Below are positions 116 to 48,325 of a stretch of 61,147 nt of DNA, one piece after another; position 1 is the stretch's first letter; each line of letters starts with the position of its first letter. A program made the position numbers and the translations under genes. Under the pieces are notes generated by a model. That model searched no databases, was not told where the DNA came from, and was given only the letters and a program-made list of their open reading frames with translations. This stretch comes from Patescibacteria group bacterium (GTDB lineage: Bacteria; Patescibacteriota; Minisyncoccia; Phycocordibacterales; UBA2100), in the NCBI GenBank assembly GCA_038064835.1, contig JBBTSD010000012.1, positions 1 to 61,147 of the forward strand. Reading direction: 5' to 3'.

Positions 116-1675
116 ATGTCGGCTCAACCAAAATATTTTCTCTACGCGCGCAAAAGCACCGAGGACGACGATAAGCAAGTGATGTCCATCGAGGCGCAAC
201 TTTTCGAGCTACGCGAGTATGCGCGCAGAGAAAATCTTGAAATTCTTGAGGAATTTCAAGAGTCGAAAAGCGCAAAGAGTCCGGGGCGGGATATTTTCGG
301 CAAGCTGATGATGCGCGTCGAGAGTATGCAGGGCGTCGGGATTTTGGCGTGGCATCCTGACCGTTTGGCGCGCAATTCGATTGACGGCGGGCGCATCATC
401 TACGCCGTGGACACCACGCGGATTGTCTCTTTGCGCTTTCCGACATTTTGGTTTGAGCCGACGCCGCAGGGGCTCTTTATGTTGCAAGTGGCGTTCGGCC
501 AGTCGAAATATTACAGCGATAATCTCAAACAGAACGTTGAGCGAGGGTTCCGCCAAAAACTGCGCCGTGGCGAGTGGCTGACCCGCGCGCCGTTCGGCTA
601 TGTGAATAATCCGCGCACGCGGAATATCGAGCCGGACGCGGTAAAATCGCGGGTCGTGGCGCGCGCGTACGAAGTGTATGCCAAAGGCGGATATACGCTG
701 GTATCGTTGGCGCAGTTTTTGGCGGAACACGGCGTTACTACACAGGCCGGAACGCCACTTGGCAAAGCTTCCGTGGCGCGACTTCTTTCCAATCGTGCGT
801 ATTTGGGGTTTACCAAACATCACGGCGAATTTTTCCCCGGAAGCTTTGCGCCAATTCTTTCTGCGCCACTGTTTGAAGCCGTCCAAAAGAAATTGCATGA
901 ACGAGCGCGTCCTCGCCACAGCCGCGTCCGCCATGATTTTCCATTTACGGGTTTGTTCCGATGCGGCGAGTGTGCGTCGATGATTACCGCACAGTGGGCA
1001 ATCGGACGACATGGCGGACGCTACCGCTACTACCGTTGCACCAAAAAGAACGGTAAGTGCGGTCAGGGATATTTGCAGGAGGACGCGCTCGTCATGCAGA
1101 CAAAGGAACGGCTTCAATCAGTGTCGCTCCCCGACGACTGGGCATCGTACATGCTTGGCAAAGTGGAGGAATGGGACACAGCCGAGAAGCAGTCGTCGGG
1201 GAGTCATGCCGAGCGGCTGAAATTCGAAACAAAAGAGATCGAGCGAAAGCTTGACGCCCTCGTTGATTTGCATTTGAACGGCGATATTGAGCGCGCGGGG
1301 TATCTCACGAAAAAAGACGAGTTTATGAGGCGCAAGCTTTCGCTCGATGCCAAATTGTCAGCCGCCCGACATGGCAGAAAGAATTGGGTCGAACCCCTGC
1401 GGCAGTGGATTTTGGATTCAAAACGCGCGGGGTTTCTGGCGAGCAGTACAAACTACGCGGAAATACGCGAGTTTGTCCGTTCCTTCGGAACGAACCCCGC
1501 GTTGTGCGACAAGACCATTTCGTTTTCATTTTGCCCGCCCTCCGAATTAGCTCGCGCCCGCAGGGCGCAATCCGCCGCCGCCCATTCCCGCGCCGCTTCG
1601 CGGCGCGGCTCCGCCGCACTCAATCCGGACGAAGTTCTAAATTGTGACCCTACCGGGAATCGAACCCGGGTTTAA
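116..1675 (+). CDS. Large serine recombinase (resolvase + recombinase + Zn-ribbon + coiled coil)
   Basis: YARKS catalytic Ser motif, DRLAR, PFGY, CGEC...YYRC zinc ribbon; 3' end overlaps tRNA-Glu. Confidence 0.92.
   Translation: MSAQPKYFLYARKSTEDDDKQVMSIEAQLFELREYARRENLEILEEFQESKSAKSPGRDIFGKLMMRVESMQGVGILAWHPDRLARNSIDGGRIIYAVDTTRIVSLRFPTFWFEPTPQGLFMLQVAFGQSKYYSDNLKQNVERGFRQKLRRGEWLTRAPFGYVNNPRTRNIEPDAVKSRVVARAYEVYAKGGYTLVSLAQFLAEHGVTTQAGTPLGKASVARLLSNRAYLGFTKHHGEFFPGSFAPILSAPLFEAVQKKLHERARPRHSRVRHDFPFTGLFRCGECASMITAQWAIGRHGGRYRYYRCTKKNGKCGQGYLQEDALVMQTKERLQSVSLPDDWASYMLGKVEEWDTAEKQSSGSHAERLKFETKEIERKLDALVDLHLNGDIERAGYLTKKDEFMRRKLSLDAKLSAARHGRKNWVEPLRQWILDSKRAGFLASSTNYAEIREFVRSFGTNPALCDKTISFSFCPPSELARARRAQSAAAHSRAASRRGSAALNPDEVLNCDPTGNRTRV
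1532..1586. repeat. Right arm of the 55-bp inverted repeat, inside the recombinase 3' end
   Basis: Exact reverse complement of 1-55; followed by a 9-bp GC hairpin at 1588-1608. Confidence 0.95.
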
Positions 1676-1716
1676 GCCTTGAGAAGGCTCCGTCCTAGCC
1701 GCTAGACGATAGGGCC
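1645..1716 (-). tRNA. tRNA-Glu(CTC), CCA not encoded
   Basis: Acceptor GGCCCTA/TAGGGTC, anticodon arm GAGCC-TT-CTC-AA-GGCTT, GGTTCGATTCC T-arm. Confidence 0.95.
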
Positions 1717-2184: not shown

Positions 2185-3489
2185 TCACACAATGGCAATC
2201 CATTCCCTTTCTTGTCGGACAAGTACTTTTTTTGCTTCCGTCGGATCGGCCATCACTTCTTTTACAAACCGTTCCATACGGATCTTGTTTTGTGATCCTT
2301 TCACCAACACGATGTCGCCTTTTTTAAGGAGTGGTGCGAGTTCTTTACCGGCTTTTCCTGACTCGCCATACCCATAGCGCCGAATATGTTCCAGAGGCAT
2401 ACCTGCGGCAAGTGCAGATTCAGCAAGTGCACCGGACTCTTCGCCTACGGTGATGAGCTGGTCTGCAAGCGGAGCTACTTTCCTGCCCACGCGTGCATGC
2501 GCGTCTTTGCTATGCTCACCCAGCTCACGCATGTCGCCAAGCGCGACGAGTATCCGCCCCCCGTGCTTGCGCAATTCTGCAAGAGTCTCAAGTGCAACCA
2601 GAACTGCCGCAGGAGATGAATTGTATGAATCATCAATGATAGTAGAACCGTGAAGGCCACGCACGATGCGCATGCGGCCGGGTGGTGCAACATGCCGTGC
2701 ATATACTGCTTCAATGACACGCGGCTCAATCCCTTCGGAAAGTGCTACCGCGACACCGCCTAACACCGCATACACATGAGCCCGTCCCAAACATCCGGGA
2801 AGCATTATGGCGAATGAACTGCCTTTATAGGAAACGCAGAAACGAACGCCCGCTGGCACATTATTTTCCCACACAACTTCATAGTCAGTTGCGCGCACCA
2901 TCACCCCCTCAGTAAAACCATAGGTGAGTGTGCGTCCGCCGGCGCGATTTTTCATACTGCGCACTCGTTGATCGTCGCCGTTCAGTACGAGCGTCCCTTT
3001 TGATTTCAGCGCGGCAACGAGCGATTCTTTTTCCCGTACTACTGCCTCGACCGAGTCGTAAAAGGCAATGTGTGGCGGAACATCCGGCACTCCCGTCACT
3101 ACCGCACAATCAGGTACAAGGTAACGCATGATTCGCGCAATGTCCCCAGGATGGTCTGCGCCCACCTCGAGCACAAGCACACGAGCAAAATGATTCCGAA
3201 ACACAATCAGTTTAAGCCCTTCCCATAGTACAGAAAGCCATCCTGGTATACTTTCCCACGCATTGGTTGCGCCCAAAATTGCCAAAGGAACACCGATATC
3301 AGTGTTTAGGGTCTTTTCACTTTTTTGTACGAATTGCGATGAGCTGAGCGCCGTAAAAACGGCATCCTTGGTAGTGGTCTTTCCTACACTACCAGTGACC
3401 GCAATGACGCGTGGCTTGTATTTACGCAATACTATACGAGCTTCAAGGGTGACAAGAAATACAACAATACTGCGAAAGAGAGCTTTCAT
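2185..3489 (-). CDS. murF: UDP-MurNAc-tripeptide:D-Ala-D-Ala ligase
   Basis: VTGSVGKTTTK, IDDSYNSSP, LGDMRELG, VLVKGS. Confidence 0.92.
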   Translation of the reverse strand: MKALFRSIVVFLVTLEARIVLRKYKPRVIAVTGSVGKTTTKDAVFTALSSSQFVQKSEKTLNTDIGVPLAILGATNAWESIPGWLSVLWEGLKLIVFRNHFARVLVLEVGADHPGDIARIMRYLVPDCAVVTGVPDVPPHIAFYDSVEAVVREKESLVAALKSKGTLVLNGDDQRVRSMKNRAGGRTLTYGFTEGVMVRATDYEVVWENNVPAGVRFCVSYKGSSFAIMLPGCLGRAHVYAVLGGVAVALSEGIEPRVIEAVYARHVAPPGRMRIVRGLHGSTIIDDSYNSSPAAVLVALETLAELRKHGGRILVALGDMRELGEHSKDAHARVGRKVAPLADQLITVGEESGALAESALAAGMPLEHIRRYGYGESGKAGKELAPLLKKGDIVLVKGSQNKIRMERFVKEVMADPTEAKKVLVRQEREWIAIV

Positions 3490-12175: not shown

Positions 12176-13234
12176 TCAATCCTCAAAATCATCGTGTGGC
12201 TTATCGATGGCAATAGGCTCAATCCCGCCACCTATACCGGAAATTTTGATTACATCTTTGTCGATTTTCCCCAACTCTTTGTAGCCTGCGTTGTAATGAC
12301 TCACGGATGTCGTGAGCGAAGTTCCCAATCGCTTGTAATAATCTTCGTATTTGGCGATATGTCGTCCCAGATTTTCGACATGCTTCCGAATTTCCTTTGC
12401 AGATTCTTCAATCTGCATACCCCGTAAACCCTGTAGCACTGTCTGCAGATAGGCCAAGAATGATGTAGGCGAGACGATGATGACTTTTTTTGTAAATGCA
12501 TATTCAACTAAATCTCGTGCCGAAATACCCGTTCCCACTGAACCCACCAGCACATCGTAGTAGAGGCCTTCAGAGGGAATAAACATAAATGCAAATTCAA
12601 GCGTGTTTTCATTCGGGCGTACATACTTGCTCGTCTCATCAATGCGGTTCTTCATATCCTGCTTGAATAGTTTTTCGAGGCGAGCGCGCTCGGCCTCGTC
12701 GCGAGTATCGAGAAGACGGTTGTAATTTTCCAGAGAGAATTTTGAGTCTATCGGGATAACTTTATCTTTGACAAAGACCACTGCATCAACAATCTCACCA
12801 TTTTCGAATGCGTACTGCATCGCAAAACTCCCTGGAGGGAGTGCGTTCTGCAAAACCGACTCAAGGTAGTATTCTCCCAAAATCCCGCGTTGTTTTGGAT
12901 TTTGTAAAATATCTTGGAGTCTTTGCAATTGTTCGGAATATGAAACAACCTGACGATTTGTCTCTTCGAGACGCGTTAGCTTCTCGGTCACTTCACCCAC
13001 AACGCGTTGAGACGCCCCCAGCTGGCTTCTCATTGAATCCTGCATGTCGCGAGAACTTTCGGTGATTTTTGAATCAATGACTCGGCGCAATTCCTGCATT
13101 TCGCTCTGGAGCATTAAGAATGGCTTGTCGTCGGTGGGAACGACTACTGCTTCTGATTTTCGCAAGAAAATGAAAGCAAGTGCTCCAGCCAAGAGAAACA
13201 CCAACATCGCAAGAATGCCTACAATAATTTCCAT
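12176..13234 (-). CDS. rmuC: DNA recombination protein RmuC
   Basis: PKQRGILGE, IDSKF, FAFMFIPSEG, VSPTS. Confidence 0.9.
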   Translation of the reverse strand: MEIIVGILAMLVFLLAGALAFIFLRKSEAVVVPTDDKPFLMLQSEMQELRRVIDSKITESSRDMQDSMRSQLGASQRVVGEVTEKLTRLEETNRQVVSYSEQLQRLQDILQNPKQRGILGEYYLESVLQNALPPGSFAMQYAFENGEIVDAVVFVKDKVIPIDSKFSLENYNRLLDTRDEAERARLEKLFKQDMKNRIDETSKYVRPNENTLEFAFMFIPSEGLYYDVLVGSVGTGISARDLVEYAFTKKVIIVSPTSFLAYLQTVLQGLRGMQIEESAKEIRKHVENLGRHIAKYEDYYKRLGTSLTTSVSHYNAGYKELGKIDKDVIKISGIGGGIEPIAIDKPHDDFED

Positions 13235-13273
13235 CAGGGTATTCTACCATGCAGTGTTTGCGGAGAGGTAACG

Positions 13274-13306
13274 AAAAACCCCCGCGAGCAGAGCTCAACG
13301 GGGGTT
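13274..13306 (-). terminator. Intrinsic terminator of the candidate large ncRNA
   Basis: AACCCCCG...CGGGGGTTTTT on the minus strand. Confidence 0.8.
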
Positions 13307-13689
13307 CTATGATGAGGGGTGGGCTAACCTTGCCCTTTTGTGTGCCGCCTCCGGTGTCCCCAAGTAAAAGCGGAGAACAACACGGCGACAAGGCCAGTCA
13401 CATTGGGTCCCCTCGACCCGAATTCTTTGGGATGGTGAAGCAGTCGACGGTTACCCGTTGGCTTGCTGCCGCACCTTGACCTACTTTCGGAACCAGTCCT
13501 CACACACCGCGCATTCCTGCACGCGGGTCGGTGGCTGTGGTGTAGGTGGGATCCCGGTCCCCTCCGCGCTCCTGCCAAGAGCTGTGCCATTGCCTTTCGG
13601 CGCTCTCCACAACCATTCCGAATGCCTCTCTCTGAGACACCCGAACAGTCGCTTCAACGAGCAAACGCAAGGGGCACTTCCTCACATCT
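13274..13689 (-). ncRNA. Candidate large structured ncRNA of unknown family (~400 nt)
   Basis: Own promoter and terminator, no credible ORF, many helices with minus-strand G-U pairs, GNRA tetraloops, 5'/3' end pairing. Confidence 0.7.
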
Positions 13690-13695
13690 ATGTAC

Positions 13696-13724
13696 AGTAT
13701 ACACCTGTAGGGTTTGCTTGTCAA
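13696..13724 (-). promoter_or_regulatory. Near-consensus sigma70 promoter
   Basis: TTGACA (13724-13719)-17 nt-TATACT (13701-13696). Confidence 0.85.
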
Positions 13725-13767
13725 GCCTTTTTGTGGTCCTATTTCTTTCCGCTTAAAGACCTTGCTT

Positions 13768-16416
13768 TCAGTGGCTTTTTGGTGCCTTGCGCGCCCACCA
13801 TTTTGCCGCTTCAGTACTGAGAAGGATCACGACACAGAATCCAGCAAGCATACCCATATCCGCAAGAGACAGGTAGGTTAGTGAAAGCAATTCCCGAGTG
13901 AATGGTAGCAAGATTGTACCCGCCAACATTCCCACGCTCCCGGCGAGAGAAAAAAGGAGCACGCGGTTGTTGAATGATTGCAAATGAAAGACCGAATGGT
14001 CTATGTCTTTAAATGCCACCGCAATGACCAAGGCCAATAGCGAGAGTGCCGCAAATATAACAGTGCGAGCATGGTCAAGATTGTCGTCGAACGCAAATAC
14101 AAATGCATACAGCGCAAGCAAAAGCACACTACCAAACAAACTCGTCCACAGTGTCAGCCGCATAAGTTGAGGTGAAAGGACATGTTCGGTGCGCCCGCGT
14201 GGACCACGGCGCATGACTGCCGGAGAGATAGGTTCGAATGCAAAAGGCAAACTCATGAATCCTTCGTGTATTAAATTTGTCCATAAAATTTGCAGTGGCA
14301 ACAGTGGCAACGGTGTAGCCGCAATAAGCGCGCCGAGAATCAACAACACTTCAATCACTCCTGTGGAAAGAAGATAGGCAATAACTTTTCCCAAGTTCGC
14401 AACAATGCGCCTCCCTTCGCGAATCGCGGCGGTAATGGTGCCTATTGAGTTCTCGATAAGGATAATGTCGGCAGATTCTTTGGCGACATCGGTGCCACTT
14501 CCCAGTGCAACGCCGATCGAGGCTGCAGCAAGCGCGGGCGCGTCGTTTACCCCATCGCCTGTCATCGCAACAACTTCCTCGTGTGCAGTCAACACTTCGG
14601 CAATGCGCAGTTTTTGATCCGGCGTCACGCGGGCAAAGACTTCAGTTTCATGAAGCGCGTCGAGTAGTTGCACATCGTCCATGTGGGACAACTCGGATCC
14701 AGTGATAATTTTCTCACCCACTGGGAGAATACCTGTTTCAGTAGCGATAGTACGCGCAGTCTCAGCATGATCGCCTGTCAGCATGATAACTCGGACACCT
14801 GCATCATGGATCGCAGTAATCTCCTCGCGGACACCTGCACGCACGGTATCTGAAAGAACTAGCACCCCTGCAAATACGAGGCCATGCAACGCGCTCCCGC
14901 CCATACGAATGTCTTCGGGGATATCGCCATCTACTACCCTATAGGCAACCCCGAGTAGTGCCTTGCCTTCGGCGCTGCGAACACTTTGTGCTTGTGCAAA
15001 CAAACTACGCATTTCTGCATCAAGCGGCCGCTTCCCAGATGCCACCGCAATAAATTGTGAGGCGGCAAGCAGGTGTTCGGGTGAACCGGTAAGATATACG
15101 CGCTCTCGGTCGCTAGAATGCGCATGCAACGATGCTGCATAACGCCGACTTGACTCGAATTGCAAAAATTGAATGCGCCGATGATCTTTCGAAAATAGTT
15201 CGGCCTGGACCACATGCGCATCCATCCCGGCAGAAACAATCGCTCGCTCGATAGGCCGACCCCGTACAACTATTCCGGCGTCGGTCTTGTCAATAAAAGC
15301 ATCGGACGCCAGCACTGCCATCTGAAGCAGTATTTTGTTGTCTGGATACTCCACGGTGGTCGCATGCTCTTGGAGTCCCCGCGGGCTCAAATATTCGTTG
15401 ATGGCCATTTCGCCCTTTGTCAGTGTCCCTGTTTTGTCGGTGAGAATGACAGTTGTCGACCCAAGTGTTTCTGCCGCAAGTAAACTTTTGACCAGGCCAC
15501 CGCTCTTGAGAATTTCTTTGACGCCTACTGCCAGCACAATCGACATCGCGGCAGGAAGTCCTTCAGGCATCGCGGCAACTGCAACTGCAACTGCGATCAG
15601 CAACATATCGAGCAGTGGCTCGCCGCGCAAAAATCCGACAAACGACACTACAAAAATGAGTACCCCCAACATACTGATGACCGCACGAGCAAGACGCCCC
15701 ACATCGCGCTGTAATGGTGTTTCGTCCAAACGCACCTTTTGCGCCTCGTGAGCGATATGCCCCAGCTCGGTCCCCTCTCCTGTGGCTACTACAACGCCAC
15801 TTGCAAAACCCGAAACGATAGTTGTCCCACTCCACAGCATGTTTGTCCTGTCAGAGACAGGAGTCTCTTCCGAGATGAGCGCTGATGATTTATTTACCGG
15901 CTTCCACTCGCCAGTAATTGGTGCCTCGTTTGTTTCAAGACCTTTTGCCTCAATCAAGCGCATGTCGGCGGGGACCATCTCACCTCCCTGTAAATGAACC
16001 AGGTCACCGGGCACAACTTCTCGTGCTGGAACGACATGTTTTTGGTTATCGCGAAATACTGTCGCTTTGTGTGCGTGTGATCGTTCCAGCGCCAGGTAAA
16101 TACGCGAGGCATGCCCTTCCTGCGCAACACCAATCGCCGCATTAATAATGAGCGCAACCATTAATACGACCGCATCAACAAACTCACCAAGCAAAAAGGT
16201 CACTGCACCAGTCGCGAGCAAAACGACAGCAAGCGGGCTTGTAAACTGTGCAACCGCTGATCGTAAAAAATGAAAGGATTGTCCTTGTGGGACCTCGTTA
16301 TAGCCGCGAACAGACAGGCGTGTTCGTGCCGCTTCCTCACTCAGACCCGCTGGCGATGATTCAAGCGCACTCAATGCGTCTTCAGGGGCCGCAGCATGCC
16401 AGGCAATTATATGCAT
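13768..16416 (-). CDS. Cation-transporting P-type ATPase (type II, Ca2+-like)
   Basis: TGE, PEGLP, DKTGTLT, MLTGD, MTGDGVNDAPAL. Confidence 0.93.
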   Translation of the reverse strand: MHIIAWHAAAPEDALSALESSPAGLSEEAARTRLSVRGYNEVPQGQSFHFLRSAVAQFTSPLAVVLLATGAVTFLLGEFVDAVVLMVALIINAAIGVAQEGHASRIYLALERSHAHKATVFRDNQKHVVPAREVVPGDLVHLQGGEMVPADMRLIEAKGLETNEAPITGEWKPVNKSSALISEETPVSDRTNMLWSGTTIVSGFASGVVVATGEGTELGHIAHEAQKVRLDETPLQRDVGRLARAVISMLGVLIFVVSFVGFLRGEPLLDMLLIAVAVAVAAMPEGLPAAMSIVLAVGVKEILKSGGLVKSLLAAETLGSTTVILTDKTGTLTKGEMAINEYLSPRGLQEHATTVEYPDNKILLQMAVLASDAFIDKTDAGIVVRGRPIERAIVSAGMDAHVVQAELFSKDHRRIQFLQFESSRRYAASLHAHSSDRERVYLTGSPEHLLAASQFIAVASGKRPLDAEMRSLFAQAQSVRSAEGKALLGVAYRVVDGDIPEDIRMGGSALHGLVFAGVLVLSDTVRAGVREEITAIHDAGVRVIMLTGDHAETARTIATETGILPVGEKIITGSELSHMDDVQLLDALHETEVFARVTPDQKLRIAEVLTAHEEVVAMTGDGVNDAPALAAASIGVALGSGTDVAKESADIILIENSIGTITAAIREGRRIVANLGKVIAYLLSTGVIEVLLILGALIAATPLPLLPLQILWTNLIHEGFMSLPFAFEPISPAVMRRGPRGRTEHVLSPQLMRLTLWTSLFGSVLLLALYAFVFAFDDNLDHARTVIFAALSLLALVIAVAFKDIDHSVFHLQSFNNRVLLFSLAGSVGMLAGTILLPFTRELLSLTYLSLADMGMLAGFCVVILLSTEAAKWWARKAPKSH

Positions 16417-19398: not shown

Positions 19399-19541
19399 CG
19401 TTCCTCTCTCTTCCGGCCAGCTCGTACTGAGCTGGCCGGACTGTACCACAAAAATTACCATCTCAGCAAGAGTTTCTTGACAGGGCCTGCAAGTACCGTA
19501 GAATCCTGAACGGACTAGAACGACCAAGGAACTGGCGAATC

Positions 19542-22549: not shown

Positions 22550-22622
22550 TGGACCCAAGGAGACTCGAACTCCTTGCCTCGTCCATGCCATGGACGCGCT
22601 CTACCAGATGAGCTATGGGCCC
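22550..22622 (-). tRNA. tRNA-Ala(GGC)
   Basis: G3-U70, anticodon arm CGTCC-AT-GGC-AT-GGACG. Confidence 0.95.
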
Positions 22623-22645
22623 CGCGGTGGCATTCTAGCAGATAG

Positions 22646-22717
22646 TGCCCTCGGCAGGAATCGAACCTACATCATCTCCTTCGGAGGGAGATATCCTATC
22701 CATTGAACGACGAGGGC
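22646..22717 (-). tRNA. tRNA-Arg(CCG)
   Basis: Anticodon arm TCTCC-CT-CCG-AA-GGAGA; GGTTCGATTCC. Confidence 0.95.
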
Positions 22718-29813: not shown

Positions 29814-29886
29814 TGGACCCATGGAGACTCGAACTCCAGACCCCCTCATTGCAAATGAGGTGCTCTACCAACTGAGCTATGGGCCC
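29814..29886 (-). tRNA. tRNA-Ala(TGC)
   Basis: G3-U70; CCTCA-TT-TGC-AA-TGAGG. Confidence 0.95.
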
Positions 29887-31349: not shown

Positions 31350-31420
31350 TCGGGATACCCGGAATCGAACCGAGCCTACATGCCCCCCAGGCATGCGTAC
31401 TGCCGATATACTATATCCCG
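31350..31420 (-). tRNA. tRNA-Pro(GGG)
   Basis: C1-G72; CATGC-CT-GGG-GG-GCATG. Confidence 0.93.
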
Positions 31421-32469: not shown

Positions 32470-32543
32470 TGCACCCTTCAGGATTCGAACCTGAGACCTT
32501 TCGAATGTGAATCGAACGCTCTAACCAGCTGAGCTAAGGGTGC
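32470..32543 (-). tRNA. tRNA-Val(CAC)
   Basis: TTCGA-TT-CAC-AT-TCGAA; GGTTCGAATCC. Confidence 0.95.
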
Positions 32544-48264: not shown

Positions 48265-48325
48265 TACTCCCTCTCTTTCTCTGCCGGTAAAACTATATGT
48301 ATATTCGATGAATCTGTCAACTTTC

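What the first reader, a model, noticed from the sequence alone, without database searches (positions are those of the whole stretch)
13274..13724. Candidate novel ~400-nt highly structured ncRNA with its own strong promoter and terminator
Seen: between the P-type ATPase and rmuC, a minus-strand TTGACA-17-TATACT promoter (13724-13696) and a GC terminator with U tract (13306-13274) enclose ~400 nt with no credible ORF. The RNA folds densely. A 12-bp helix (13645-13634 with 13628-13617) contains four G-U pairs that work only on the minus strand. A 9-bp helix UGGUUGUGG/CCACAGCCA (13615-13607 with 13540-13532) closes a multibranch. There are GNRA-capped hairpins GCC-GAAA-GGC, GCA-GGAA-UGC and ACGG-GUAA-CCGU, further G-U-rich stems (UGUCGCC/GGCGGCA, UGUUCUC/GGGGACA), and 5'/3' end pairing (AUGUGAGG with CCUCAUCAU). 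Established: it lacks tmRNA tRNA-like ends, the SRP helix-8 motif, group II intron domain V and the canonical RNase P layout. Only GAGGAAGUGCCC near the 5' end and ACAAAAGGGC near the 3' end loosely echo RNase P CR-I/CR-V. Inference: an abundant large RNA of unknown function (ribozyme or OLE/ROOL-like scaffold) retained in a reduced genome.
Basis: partly seen in the sequence, partly recalled or inferred. Interest (0 to 1): 0.88.

Follow-up and report, generated by a model that had tools for sequence, protein, structure and literature searches.

The report
Orphan promoter-to-terminator RNA gene insertion
A roughly 416-base stretch with its own strong promoter and terminator and no protein-coding frame sits as a species-specific insertion between two normally adjacent genes of a tiny groundwater bacterium; it is probably a newly gained non-coding RNA gene, not an ancient ribozyme.

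Summary
The promoter (TTGACA-17-TATACT, 11 of 12), the intrinsic terminator and the listed helices are at the stated coordinates. No ORF is credible and nothing in Rfam 15 matches.

First, the body of the RNA does not fold better than shuffles: z = -0.72 without the terminator, against -4.2 for this genome's own rnpB and tmRNA. Only the 5' ~125 nt is strand-specifically stable (z = -2.6).

Second, it is gained, not retained. In 13 of 14 relatives that keep the ATPase-rmuC pair the two genes lie -15 to 88 nt apart. G000 carries a ~530-nt insert there. No homolog turned up by DNA search in 150 family, 400 order and 400 phylum genomes, or by a covariance model in 150 family and 150 order genomes.

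Canonical rnpB and tmRNA lie elsewhere in the genome.

One diverged copy (~90% identity) appears as two short contigs in a drinking-water metagenome. It keeps the -10 box, breaks every ORF by indels, keeps the long hairpin through one-base deletions in both arms, and shows two compensatory pairs in the 9-bp helix. That last reading rests on my hand alignment.

Verdict: a plausible lineage-specific accessory ncRNA gene of unknown function, with thin evidence.

The parts
13235..13767 (-). The whole ~530-nt insertion between the ATPase stop codon (13770-13768) and the rmuC start codon (13234). G+C is 0.56-0.61, against 0.44-0.53 in the flanks and 0.503 for the genome.
   Evidence: In 13 of 14 relatives with ATPase directly upstream of rmuC the spacer is -15 to 88 nt. 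Composition.
13696..13724 (-). Sigma-70-type promoter TTGACA-17-TATACT. The inferred transcription start is near 13689.
   Evidence: 11 of 12. Genome-wide enrichment of such sites, 50 against 9-13 in shuffles. The -10 box is retained in the diverged X9 copy (loose end at 13684). The start site is inferred, not measured.
13680..13687 (-). 5' strand of the closing helix. It pairs with 13317-13309, with one bulged U.
   Evidence: MFE folds. Pair probabilities are 0.64-0.95. The partner strand is not covered by X9, so conservation is untested.
13617..13645 (-). Hairpin H1: 12 bp with four G-U pairs and loop AGAGA.
   Evidence: pair list. Pair probabilities reach 1.0. In X9 it carries 7 differences, including one deleted base in each arm, yet by my hand reading it still forms 10 bp plus one bulge.
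13607..13615 (-). 5' strand of helix H2 (9 bp with 13540-13532). It can alternatively extend H1 by pairing with 13652-13646.
   Evidence: H2 is in the MFE of the local domain 13652-13528 but has probability ~0 in the full-length ensemble. X9 changes U13612-G13535 to A-U and U13611-A13536 to C-G (using my hand alignment of a loose end). The U13615-A13532 pair becomes C-A.
13532..13540 (-). 3' strand of helix H2.
13447..13458 (-). Hairpin ACGG-GUAA-CCGU (GNRA loop).
   Evidence: Sequence. In X9 the loop changes at 13453 from GUAA to GAAA, so it is still GNRA (table 3).
13309..13317 (-). 3' strand of the closing helix.
13274..13306 (-). Intrinsic terminator: G+C-rich two-part stem, then UUUUU.
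   Evidence: The only sub-threshold Rfam matches here are to terminator hairpins of unrelated sRNAs.
13232..13246 (-). rmuC's own -10 box TAGAAT (13246-13241), 6 nt before its ATG (13234-13232), so the mRNA is leaderless. This is not part of the element. It shows that rmuC does not need the element's promoter.
   Evidence: The same arrangement occurs in 5 of 5 relatives inspected (L007, L008, L009, L010, L014).

Best explanation
This is a lineage-specific, recently inserted gene for a non-coding RNA of about 416 nt.

How it is made. RNA polymerase starts at a near-consensus sigma-70 promoter (13724-13696) and stops at an intrinsic terminator (13306-13274). The ends pair with each other. The 5' third forms a long G-U-rich hairpin, followed by a helix that closes a multibranch. 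The 3' two thirds have no fold that stands out from chance.

How it acts. I think it acts as an RNA in trans, as an accessory regulatory or protein-binding RNA. I do not think it is a housekeeping ribozyme or a leader for rmuC.

Shown: the signals, the absence of a conserved frame, the insertion, and the existence of one diverged copy whose changes spare two helices.

Inferred: that it is transcribed, that the RNA is stable, and any function.
For: - Promoter and terminator are present, and near-consensus promoters are about 4.5-fold enriched in this genome.
- It is non-coding. There are no Pfam hits and only Arg-rich, low-quality ORFs. None is in the protein collection.
- In the X9 copy the indels are +1 after 13582 and -1 at 13627, 13629 and 13640. 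My reading of the loose ends adds further indels. These put the 88-aa and 61-aa frames out of register.
- It is an insertion, and rmuC keeps its own conserved leaderless promoter downstream of the terminator. The unit is therefore autonomous.
- A second study's run (X9, drinking water) holds two pieces at about 88-92% identity with the -10 box retained.
- In the 5' domain model of 39 pairs, 27 are unchanged, 1 is kept by a one-sided change, 2 are kept by two-sided changes, 2 are broken, 2 touch deletions and 5 are not covered.
- The deletions remove one base from each arm of H1, so a 10-bp stem remains (hand reading).
- The GUAA loop changes to GAAA.
- The 5' 125 nt fold better than shuffles only on the minus strand: z = -2.57 against -0.10.
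- Two independent studies' contigs carry the identical locus in one piece, so it is not a binning or assembly join.
Against: - The body folds no better than shuffles: z = -0.72, 28 of 100.
- The middle and 3' windows are at or above the shuffle mean.
- In a local fold of 13530-13400 (34 pairs) the X9 changes break 3 pairs, 1 more touches a deletion, and none is compensated.
- H2 has about zero probability in the full-length ensemble.
- The two compensatory pairs rest on my hand alignment of a 14-letter loose end from a single 151-nt contig at depth 2. Five of X9's 18 substitutions are not located by the tool.
- There is no expression evidence.
- No homolog was found: 0 of 60 relatives, 0 of 150 family, 0 of 400 order and 0 of 400 phylum genomes by DNA beyond short chance or terminator matches; 0 of 150 family and 0 of 150 order genomes by covariance model.
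- No partner protein or target is known.
Confidence: 0.45

Rival explanations
1. Non-functional insertion. This would be a decaying remnant of foreign or mobile DNA, such as a dead gene cassette, that happens to keep a promoter and a terminator. Any transcript would be a by-product.
For: - It is an orphan in every collection searched.
- Its G+C is 0.56-0.61 against a genome value of 0.50.
- The body folds at shuffle level.
- The same junction accepted an unrelated 112-aa ORF in another genus (L035), so the site tolerates insertions.
Against: - An 11-of-12 promoter and a clean terminator bracket it exactly.
- The diverged X9 copy keeps the -10 box and keeps H1 and H2 pairing despite 10 or more changes there.
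- No translated similarity to anything was found.
- There are no terminal inverted repeats or target duplications at the borders.
- These genomes are small, so 530 nt of junk is costly. This last point is inference.
Confidence: 0.25
2. Cis-acting leader or insulator for rmuC. A strong upstream promoter, a long sensing leader and a terminator 40 nt before rmuC would tune rmuC by regulated read-through. Alternatively the terminator simply insulates rmuC from ATPase transcription.
For: - It is on the same strand and directly upstream of rmuC, with the terminator ending 40 nt before the ATG.
- The segment 13615-13607 has two mutually exclusive partners, 13652-13646 or 13540-13532. X9's changes are tolerated by both.
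Against: - rmuC keeps its own -10 box 6 nt before the ATG, as in 5 of 5 relatives inspected that lack the element.
- A read-through transcript would present rmuC's AUG with no Shine-Dalgarno sequence.
- No known riboswitch or T-box matches even at E<=10.
- The element is absent upstream of rmuC in all 29 relatives' rmuC loci (nhmmer).
Confidence: 0.1
3. mRNA for a very small protein, for instance a type I toxin-like peptide. The candidate is a 25-codon GTG frame at 13401-13324: a hydrophobic N-terminal half, an Arg/His/Lys-rich tail, and GAGGGG 7 nt upstream. The 5'/3' fold-back would resemble hok-type mRNAs (resemblance recalled from memory).
For: - The small ORF and its Shine-Dalgarno-like motif are.
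- 5'/3' end pairing is present.
- A lineage-specific intergenic insertion is typical of such loci (recalled).
Against: - The hydrophobic run is only about 14 residues.
- No antisense promoter was found; there is only one promoter-like site in 12800-14200.
- There is a single copy in the genome.
- X9 does not cover the ORF, so conservation is untested.
- A 25-codon frame in 60% G+C sequence is expected by chance.
Confidence: 0.07
4. A divergent copy of a known housekeeping RNA: RNase P RNA, tmRNA, SRP RNA or 6S RNA.
For: - Its length is similar to rnpB and tmRNA.
- It has a closing helix.
- It contains motifs GAGGAAGUGCCC and ACAAAAGGGC that loosely recall CR-I and CR-V.
- No SRP RNA or 6S RNA is detectable elsewhere in the genome.
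Against: - There is no Rfam match to any of them at E<=10.
- Canonical rnpB and tmRNA are elsewhere.
- ARAGORN finds nothing.
- The element is absent from all relatives, which also lack detectable SRP RNA (0 of 21). It therefore cannot be the clade's housekeeping RNA.
- It has no significant similarity to the genome's own rnpB or tmRNA.
Confidence: 0.02

Closest known systems
Lineage-specific ('orphan') bacterial non-coding RNA genes with a sigma-70 promoter and an intrinsic terminator
   Same: It is an autonomous intergenic unit with no conserved frame. Its distribution is restricted to one species-level lineage plus one near relative seen only as reads.
   Different: At about 416 nt it is several times longer than typical base-pairing sRNAs. 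No target, chaperone or expression data exist.
Bacterial RNase P RNA (Rfam RF00010)
   Same: Similar length, a terminal closing helix, GNRA-capped hairpins, and a GAGGAAG... motif near the 5' end.
   Different: No model match at E<=10. The candidate P4-like pairing is only 5 bp by hand reading. The genome has a full-length canonical rnpB. The element is missing in relatives.
Large structured RNAs of unknown function (OLE, ROOL, GOLLD, raiA; names recalled, all said to be in Rfam)
   Same: It is a long non-coding RNA with its own promoter and terminator and several GNRA loops.
   Different: Those families are widespread and show strong covariation (recalled). Here no Rfam 15 family matches, folding of the body is at chance level, and no family could be assembled.
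hok-type type I toxin mRNAs (recalled)
   Same: About 400 nt, 5'/3' fold-back pairing, a strong promoter, and lineage-specific insertion.
   Different: No convincing toxin ORF, no antisense promoter, and a single copy.
CsrB/RsmZ-type protein-sponge RNAs
   Same: Similar length, a strong promoter plus terminator, and poor sequence conservation between lineages (recalled).
   Different: GGA motifs are not enriched: 12 observed against 9.0 expected, reached by 323 of 2000 shuffles, with no A-N-GGA motif. No CsrA is found in the genome above the cut-off; the best match is 19 bits inside a 393-aa frame.

Membership tests
RNase P RNA (bacterial) | Match to the covariance model (RF00010/RF00011) | tested here: not met
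   There is no RNase P row among the 7 matches at E<=10 in 13200-13800, and none at gathering in the window.
RNase P RNA (bacterial) | It is the genome's rnpB (one essential copy, conserved in relatives) | tested here: not met
   Canonical rnpB is at C9:34633-34993, 109.6 bits, model positions 1-367. The element is absent from 150 of 150 family genomes.
RNase P RNA (bacterial) | P4 helix formed by CR-I and CR-V with a bulged U | tested here: inconclusive
   By hand only 5 contiguous pairs (UGCCC with GGGCA) can form between the two motifs. The layout of P4 is recalled, not computed.
tmRNA | tRNA-like ends and a tag reading frame | tested here: not met
   ARAGORN finds 0 genes in 13000-14000. 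There is no Rfam match. tmRNA is at C1:154060-154450.
SRP RNA | Match to RF00169 or RF01854 (helix 8 motif) | tested here: not met
   No match in the window or in the genome.
6S RNA | Match to RF00013; rod with a central bubble | tested here: not met
   No match. The predicted fold is branched.
Known large structured RNAs and self-cleaving ribozymes in Rfam 15 | Match to any of 4227 models | tested here: not met
   The best of 7 matches is 16.2 bits at E 3.3, to a microRNA model. All are far below gathering.
Riboswitch or leader of rmuC | Association with the downstream gene conserved across species | tested here: not met
   No similarity in the 29 relatives' rmuC loci (nhmmer). In 13 of 14 loci with ATPase upstream the junction is only -15 to 88 nt.
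Type I toxin-antitoxin mRNA | Small hydrophobic toxin ORF plus an antisense RNA gene | tested here: inconclusive
   A 25-codon ORF with a ~14-residue hydrophobic run exists. No antisense promoter-like site was found. Conservation could not be tested.
Structured ncRNA in general | Base pairs kept by compensatory change across homologs | tested here: inconclusive
   There is one partial homolog only (X9). In the a-priori helix H2 there are 2 two-sided kept pairs, and H1 is kept after indels. Elsewhere 3 pairs break. This relies on hand alignment and is too few sequences for a statistical test.
Structured ncRNA in general | Folding energy below shuffles | tested here: not met
   The body gives z = -0.72. 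Only the 5' 125 nt reaches -2.57.

The most novel reading that the evidence does not exclude
This is a new class of mid-sized structured RNA that entered a groundwater ultra-small bacterium by horizontal transfer as a bare RNA gene: promoter, RNA and terminator, with no protein gene. Its 5' domain toggles between two mutually exclusive pairings of 13615-13607, either extending hairpin H1 or closing the multibranch as H2. Both pairings stay possible in the diverged copy, which would make it a trans-acting RNA switch or scaffold.
Probability: 0.12. Interest if true: 0.65.

Novelty: new member of a known kind. Interest (0 to 1): 0.33.

Why it matters
Non-coding RNAs of ultra-small groundwater bacteria are almost unstudied. 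A 416-nt RNA gene gained as a bare cassette at a conserved gene junction would be a clean example of how accessory RNA genes arise and move in streamlined genomes.

As it stands it cannot support more than that. There is one genome, one partial relative, no expression data, and a fold that is unremarkable outside the 5' third. The practical value of this check is to remove the RNase P-like, ancient-ribozyme and OLE/ROOL-like reading, and to show that the element is young.

Tried and rejected
- **Rfam.** The whole window at gathering gave only 6 tRNAs. The region 13200-13800 at E<=10 gave 7 chance-level rows.
- **DNA homolog searches.** Relatives gave 0 real hits of 60. The family gave 0 of 150. 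The order gave 0 of 400, with one terminator-only match. The phylum gave 0 of 400, with three 24-34-nt matches at E 0.005-0.007. Phage and plasmid collections gave no match.
- **Covariance model R1** of 13652-13528. It matched 0 of 150 family genomes and 0 of 150 order genomes, and only itself in G000.
- **Exact-pattern scans.**
  - The metagenome 19-mer gave 3 contigs and the viral scan gave 1. All lie in unrelated coding DNA, and only the 19-mer aligns.
  - The genome contigs 20-mer gave 0 hits.
  - The genome contigs 18-mer gave 12 hits, about what I estimate by chance. None aligns beyond 18-27 nt.
  - Six viral scans in all gave 1, 0, 1, 0, 0 and 0 hits.
- **nhmmer** against 29 relatives' rmuC loci found nothing.
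- **Promoter as a duplicate of the rmuC promoter.** Rejected: the alignment score is reached by 88 of 500 shuffles.
- **Transposon-like ends.** No inverted or direct repeats lie at the borders.
- **Paralogy to the genome's own rnpB or tmRNA.** Rejected.
- **Remnant of the 112-aa ORF that sits at the same junction in L035.** Rejected: tblastn E 0.31 on the wrong strand.
- **CsrB-like sponge.** Rejected.
- **Another high-G+C gap with a strong promoter (C2:18262-18592).** It proved to be an ordinary 166-aa gene.
- **Expression.** No RNA holder is listed among the 9 runs.
- **Literature.** Four searches gave listings only. I read passages of PMC10768705 and PMC8321541, and neither bears on the element. 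I found no paper describing this RNA in those searches.
- **Tools.** Supplementary files were not consulted.

Full report
**What is there.** On the minus strand, the stop codon of an 882-aa P-type ATPase (13768-16416) is followed by a gap of 533 nt before the start of a 352-aa RmuC protein (12176-13234) (Pfam).
- The gap holds a TTGACA-17-TATACT promoter at 13724-13696. It scores 11 of 12 and is the only promoter-like site in 12800-14200.
- It also holds an intrinsic terminator at 13306-13274.
- In this 1.12-Mb genome, sites with >=11 of 12 matches occur 50 times, against 9-13 in five shuffled genomes. The motif is therefore used by this organism, and this is one of its best instances.
- A start near 13689 and an end at 13274 give an RNA of about 416 nt. 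Both ends are inferred.

**Is it coding?** Probably not.
- The frames of 20 codons or more on both strands are Arg-rich and low in quality.
- Six ORFs gave no Pfam match.
- None of eight translations exists in a 15-billion-protein collection. Only the ATG-started ones are a fair test there.
- In the one diverged copy available (below), the indels do not come in threes over the 61-aa and 88-aa frames.

**Is it a known RNA?** No.
- Rfam 15 at gathering finds only six tRNAs in the window.
- At E<=10 over 13200-13800 there are seven rows, the best at 16.2 bits and E 3.3. None belongs to RNase P, tmRNA, SRP, 6S, a riboswitch, a ribozyme or a large-RNA family.
- ARAGORN finds nothing.
- The genome has a full-length canonical rnpB at C9:34633-34993 (109.6 bits) and a tmRNA at C1:154060-154450 (128.3 bits).
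- The element has no significant similarity to either.
- The 'CR-I/CR-V echo' is a resemblance of two short motifs only.

**Is it densely folded?** Less than it looks.
- With the terminator the MFE is -174 kcal/mol, z = -2.23.
- Without it (13689-13310) z = -0.72, and 28 of 100 dinucleotide shuffles fold as well.
- The genome's own rnpB gives z = -4.22 and its tmRNA -4.18.
- In ~125-nt windows only the 5' end stands out, and only on the minus strand. For 13689-13565 z = -2.57 (2 of 200) against +strand -0.10. For 13652-13528 z = -1.91.
- The middle and 3' windows range from +0.80 to -1.17.
In 60% G+C sequence most of them are what chance gives.
- The 9-bp helix H2 (13615-13607 with 13540-13532) is part of the MFE of the isolated 5' domain. 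It has about zero probability in the full-length ensemble, where 13615-13609 instead extends hairpin H1.

**It is an insertion, not a relic.**
- RmuC was found in 40 of 41 genomes searched, G000 included.
- Of the 29 relatives' rmuC loci fetched, 14 have the ATPase directly upstream on the same strand.
- In 13 of those 14 the estimated distance from ATPase stop to rmuC start is -15 to 88 nt.
- The 14th (L035) has about 590 nt, holding an unrelated 112-aa ORF.
- The five closest junctions were read base by base. Each has a -10-like box 6-8 nt before the rmuC ATG, as in G000 (TAGAAT at 13246-13241). So rmuC is leaderless with its own promoter, which in G000 lies downstream of the element's terminator.
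- The same-genus genome G001 has the ATPase stop about 37 nt before the rmuC ATG (locus L009).
- The element is therefore a gain in the G000 lineage and a self-contained unit.
- Its G+C is 0.56-0.61, against 0.44-0.53 in the flanks and 0.503 for the genome.
- No inverted or direct repeats mark its borders.

**Homologs.** I could fetch none. The Tried and rejected section gives the full list of DNA, model and exact-pattern searches.

Public runs: 8 of 9 listed rows hold half or more of the sampled words, and all 8 are groundwater or unlabelled DNA from two studies. X1 and X5 carry the whole 1001-nt stretch in single contigs with no difference. They may be the source of the window.

The ninth run, X9, is drinking water from a third study. 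It holds two 151-nt contigs at depth 2.
- One covers 13404-13534 with 10 substitutions and 5 gaps.
- The other covers 13563-13684 with 8 substitutions and 4 gaps.
- Thirteen substitutions and nine indels are located by the tool. Five substitutions near contig ends are not.

**What the diverged copy says.** This is my hand reading, with pairs scored.
- The loose end beyond 13684 still carries the -10 box.
- Hairpin H1 takes 7 differences, including one deleted base in each arm (13640 and 13627) and one in the loop. It still forms 10 pairs with one bulged G.
- In H2 there are changes on both strands. U13612-G13535 becomes A-U and U13611-A13536 becomes C-G. The terminal U13615-A13532 becomes C-A.
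- These two compensations use my alignment of a 14-letter loose end that includes a 3-nt insertion. The complementarity of the two five-base strands holds however the gap is placed.
- The GUAA loop at 13454-13451 becomes GAAA.
- A13467-U13442 becomes G-U.
- The remaining 5'-domain differences fall in predicted loops or bulges.

Tallies:

| Model | Pairs | Unchanged | One-sided kept | Two-sided kept | Broken | Touch deletions | Not covered |
|---|---|---|---|---|---|---|---|
| 5' domain | 39 | 27 | 1 | 2 | 2 | 2 | 5 |
| Full-length MFE | 124 | 72 | 4 | 1 | 3 | 2 | 42 |
| Local fold 13530-13400 | 34 | 29 | 1 | 0 | 3 | 1 | 0 |

The 5' hairpin-plus-H2 domain looks constrained as RNA. The middle does not. 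The 3' third is unseen. One partial sequence cannot carry a statistical test.

**Mechanism.** My best reading, at about 0.45, is an autonomously transcribed accessory non-coding RNA that acts in trans.
- Its ends are closed by a helix, with pair probabilities 0.64-0.95.
- Its functional core is in the 5' third.
- Transcription, stability, partner and function are all inferred.

The rivals are these:
- A decaying, functionless insertion (0.25).
- A cis leader or insulator for rmuC (0.10). This is weakened by rmuC's own conserved leaderless promoter and by the element's absence upstream of rmuC elsewhere.
- An mRNA for a tiny peptide such as the 25-codon frame 13401-13324 (0.07).
- A divergent housekeeping RNA (0.02). 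This is tested and failed.

A CsrB-like sponge was rejected: GGA is not enriched and no CsrA is present.

**Novelty and score.** It belongs to no described family, but orphan promoter-to-terminator RNA genes are a known kind. Interest is modest (0.33). It would rise if a full-length diverged copy confirmed the helices or if transcripts were seen.

**Limits.**
- The taxon was not named by any tool. Small genomes (relatives of 0.4-1.3 Mb), no uL30 and a groundwater origin fit the candidate phyla radiation, but I recall that link rather than having tested it.
- Scans of metagenome contigs and genome contigs are exhausted.

Noticed in passing
whole genome G000 and its phylum (no window coordinates): No signal recognition particle is detectable.
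- G000 has no SRP RNA (RF00169 and RF01854).
- It has no Ffh M domain (PF02978).
- It has no SRP54-type GTPase above the cut-off; the best is 18.2 bits.
- It has no TIGR00959 match.
- No co-located G1/G3/G4 SRP-GTPase motifs occur in six frames (motifs recalled from memory).
- SecY is found at 1e-103, so the search method works on this genome.
- PF02978 matches 0 of 31 genomes among relatives, G000 included, and 0 of 151 sampled across the phylum, G000 included.
- RF00169 matches 0 of 21.
- Controls ring in 14 of 14 for the protein models.

Three literature searches showed no paper stating this in their listings. It could be a real clade-wide loss or a blind spot of the tool's first-look filter.
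   Followed up: partly
window 13232-13246 and loci L007-L010, L014: rmuC appears to be leaderless. A -10-like box (TAGAAT, TACAAT, TACACT or TATAAT) ends 6-8 nt before the ATG in G000 and in 5 of 5 relatives inspected. It often overlaps the end of the upstream ATPase gene.
   Followed up: partly
L035 2551-3140 (genome G023): The same ATPase-rmuC junction holds a different insertion in another genus: a 112-aa ORF (2684-3022) with no similarity to the element or to anything in G000. The junction seems to tolerate insertions.
   Followed up: partly
whole genome G000: Ribosomal protein uL30 (PF00327) was not found, and 6S RNA (RF00013) was not found. The first fits what I recall of the candidate phyla radiation. 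6S models ring in only 5 of 14 control genomes, so the second says little.
   Followed up: no
whole genome G000: Near-consensus sigma-70 promoters (>=11 of 12) are about 4.5-fold enriched, 50 sites against 9-13 in shuffles. Three other sites lie in the window, at 19477 (+), 20336 (+) and 51080 (-), plus one at 48320 (-). Their downstream genes were not examined.
   Followed up: no
window 1645-1716, 22550-22717, 29814-29886, 31350-31420, 32470-32543: Six tRNA genes, all on the minus strand, are the only Rfam matches in the window.
   Followed up: no
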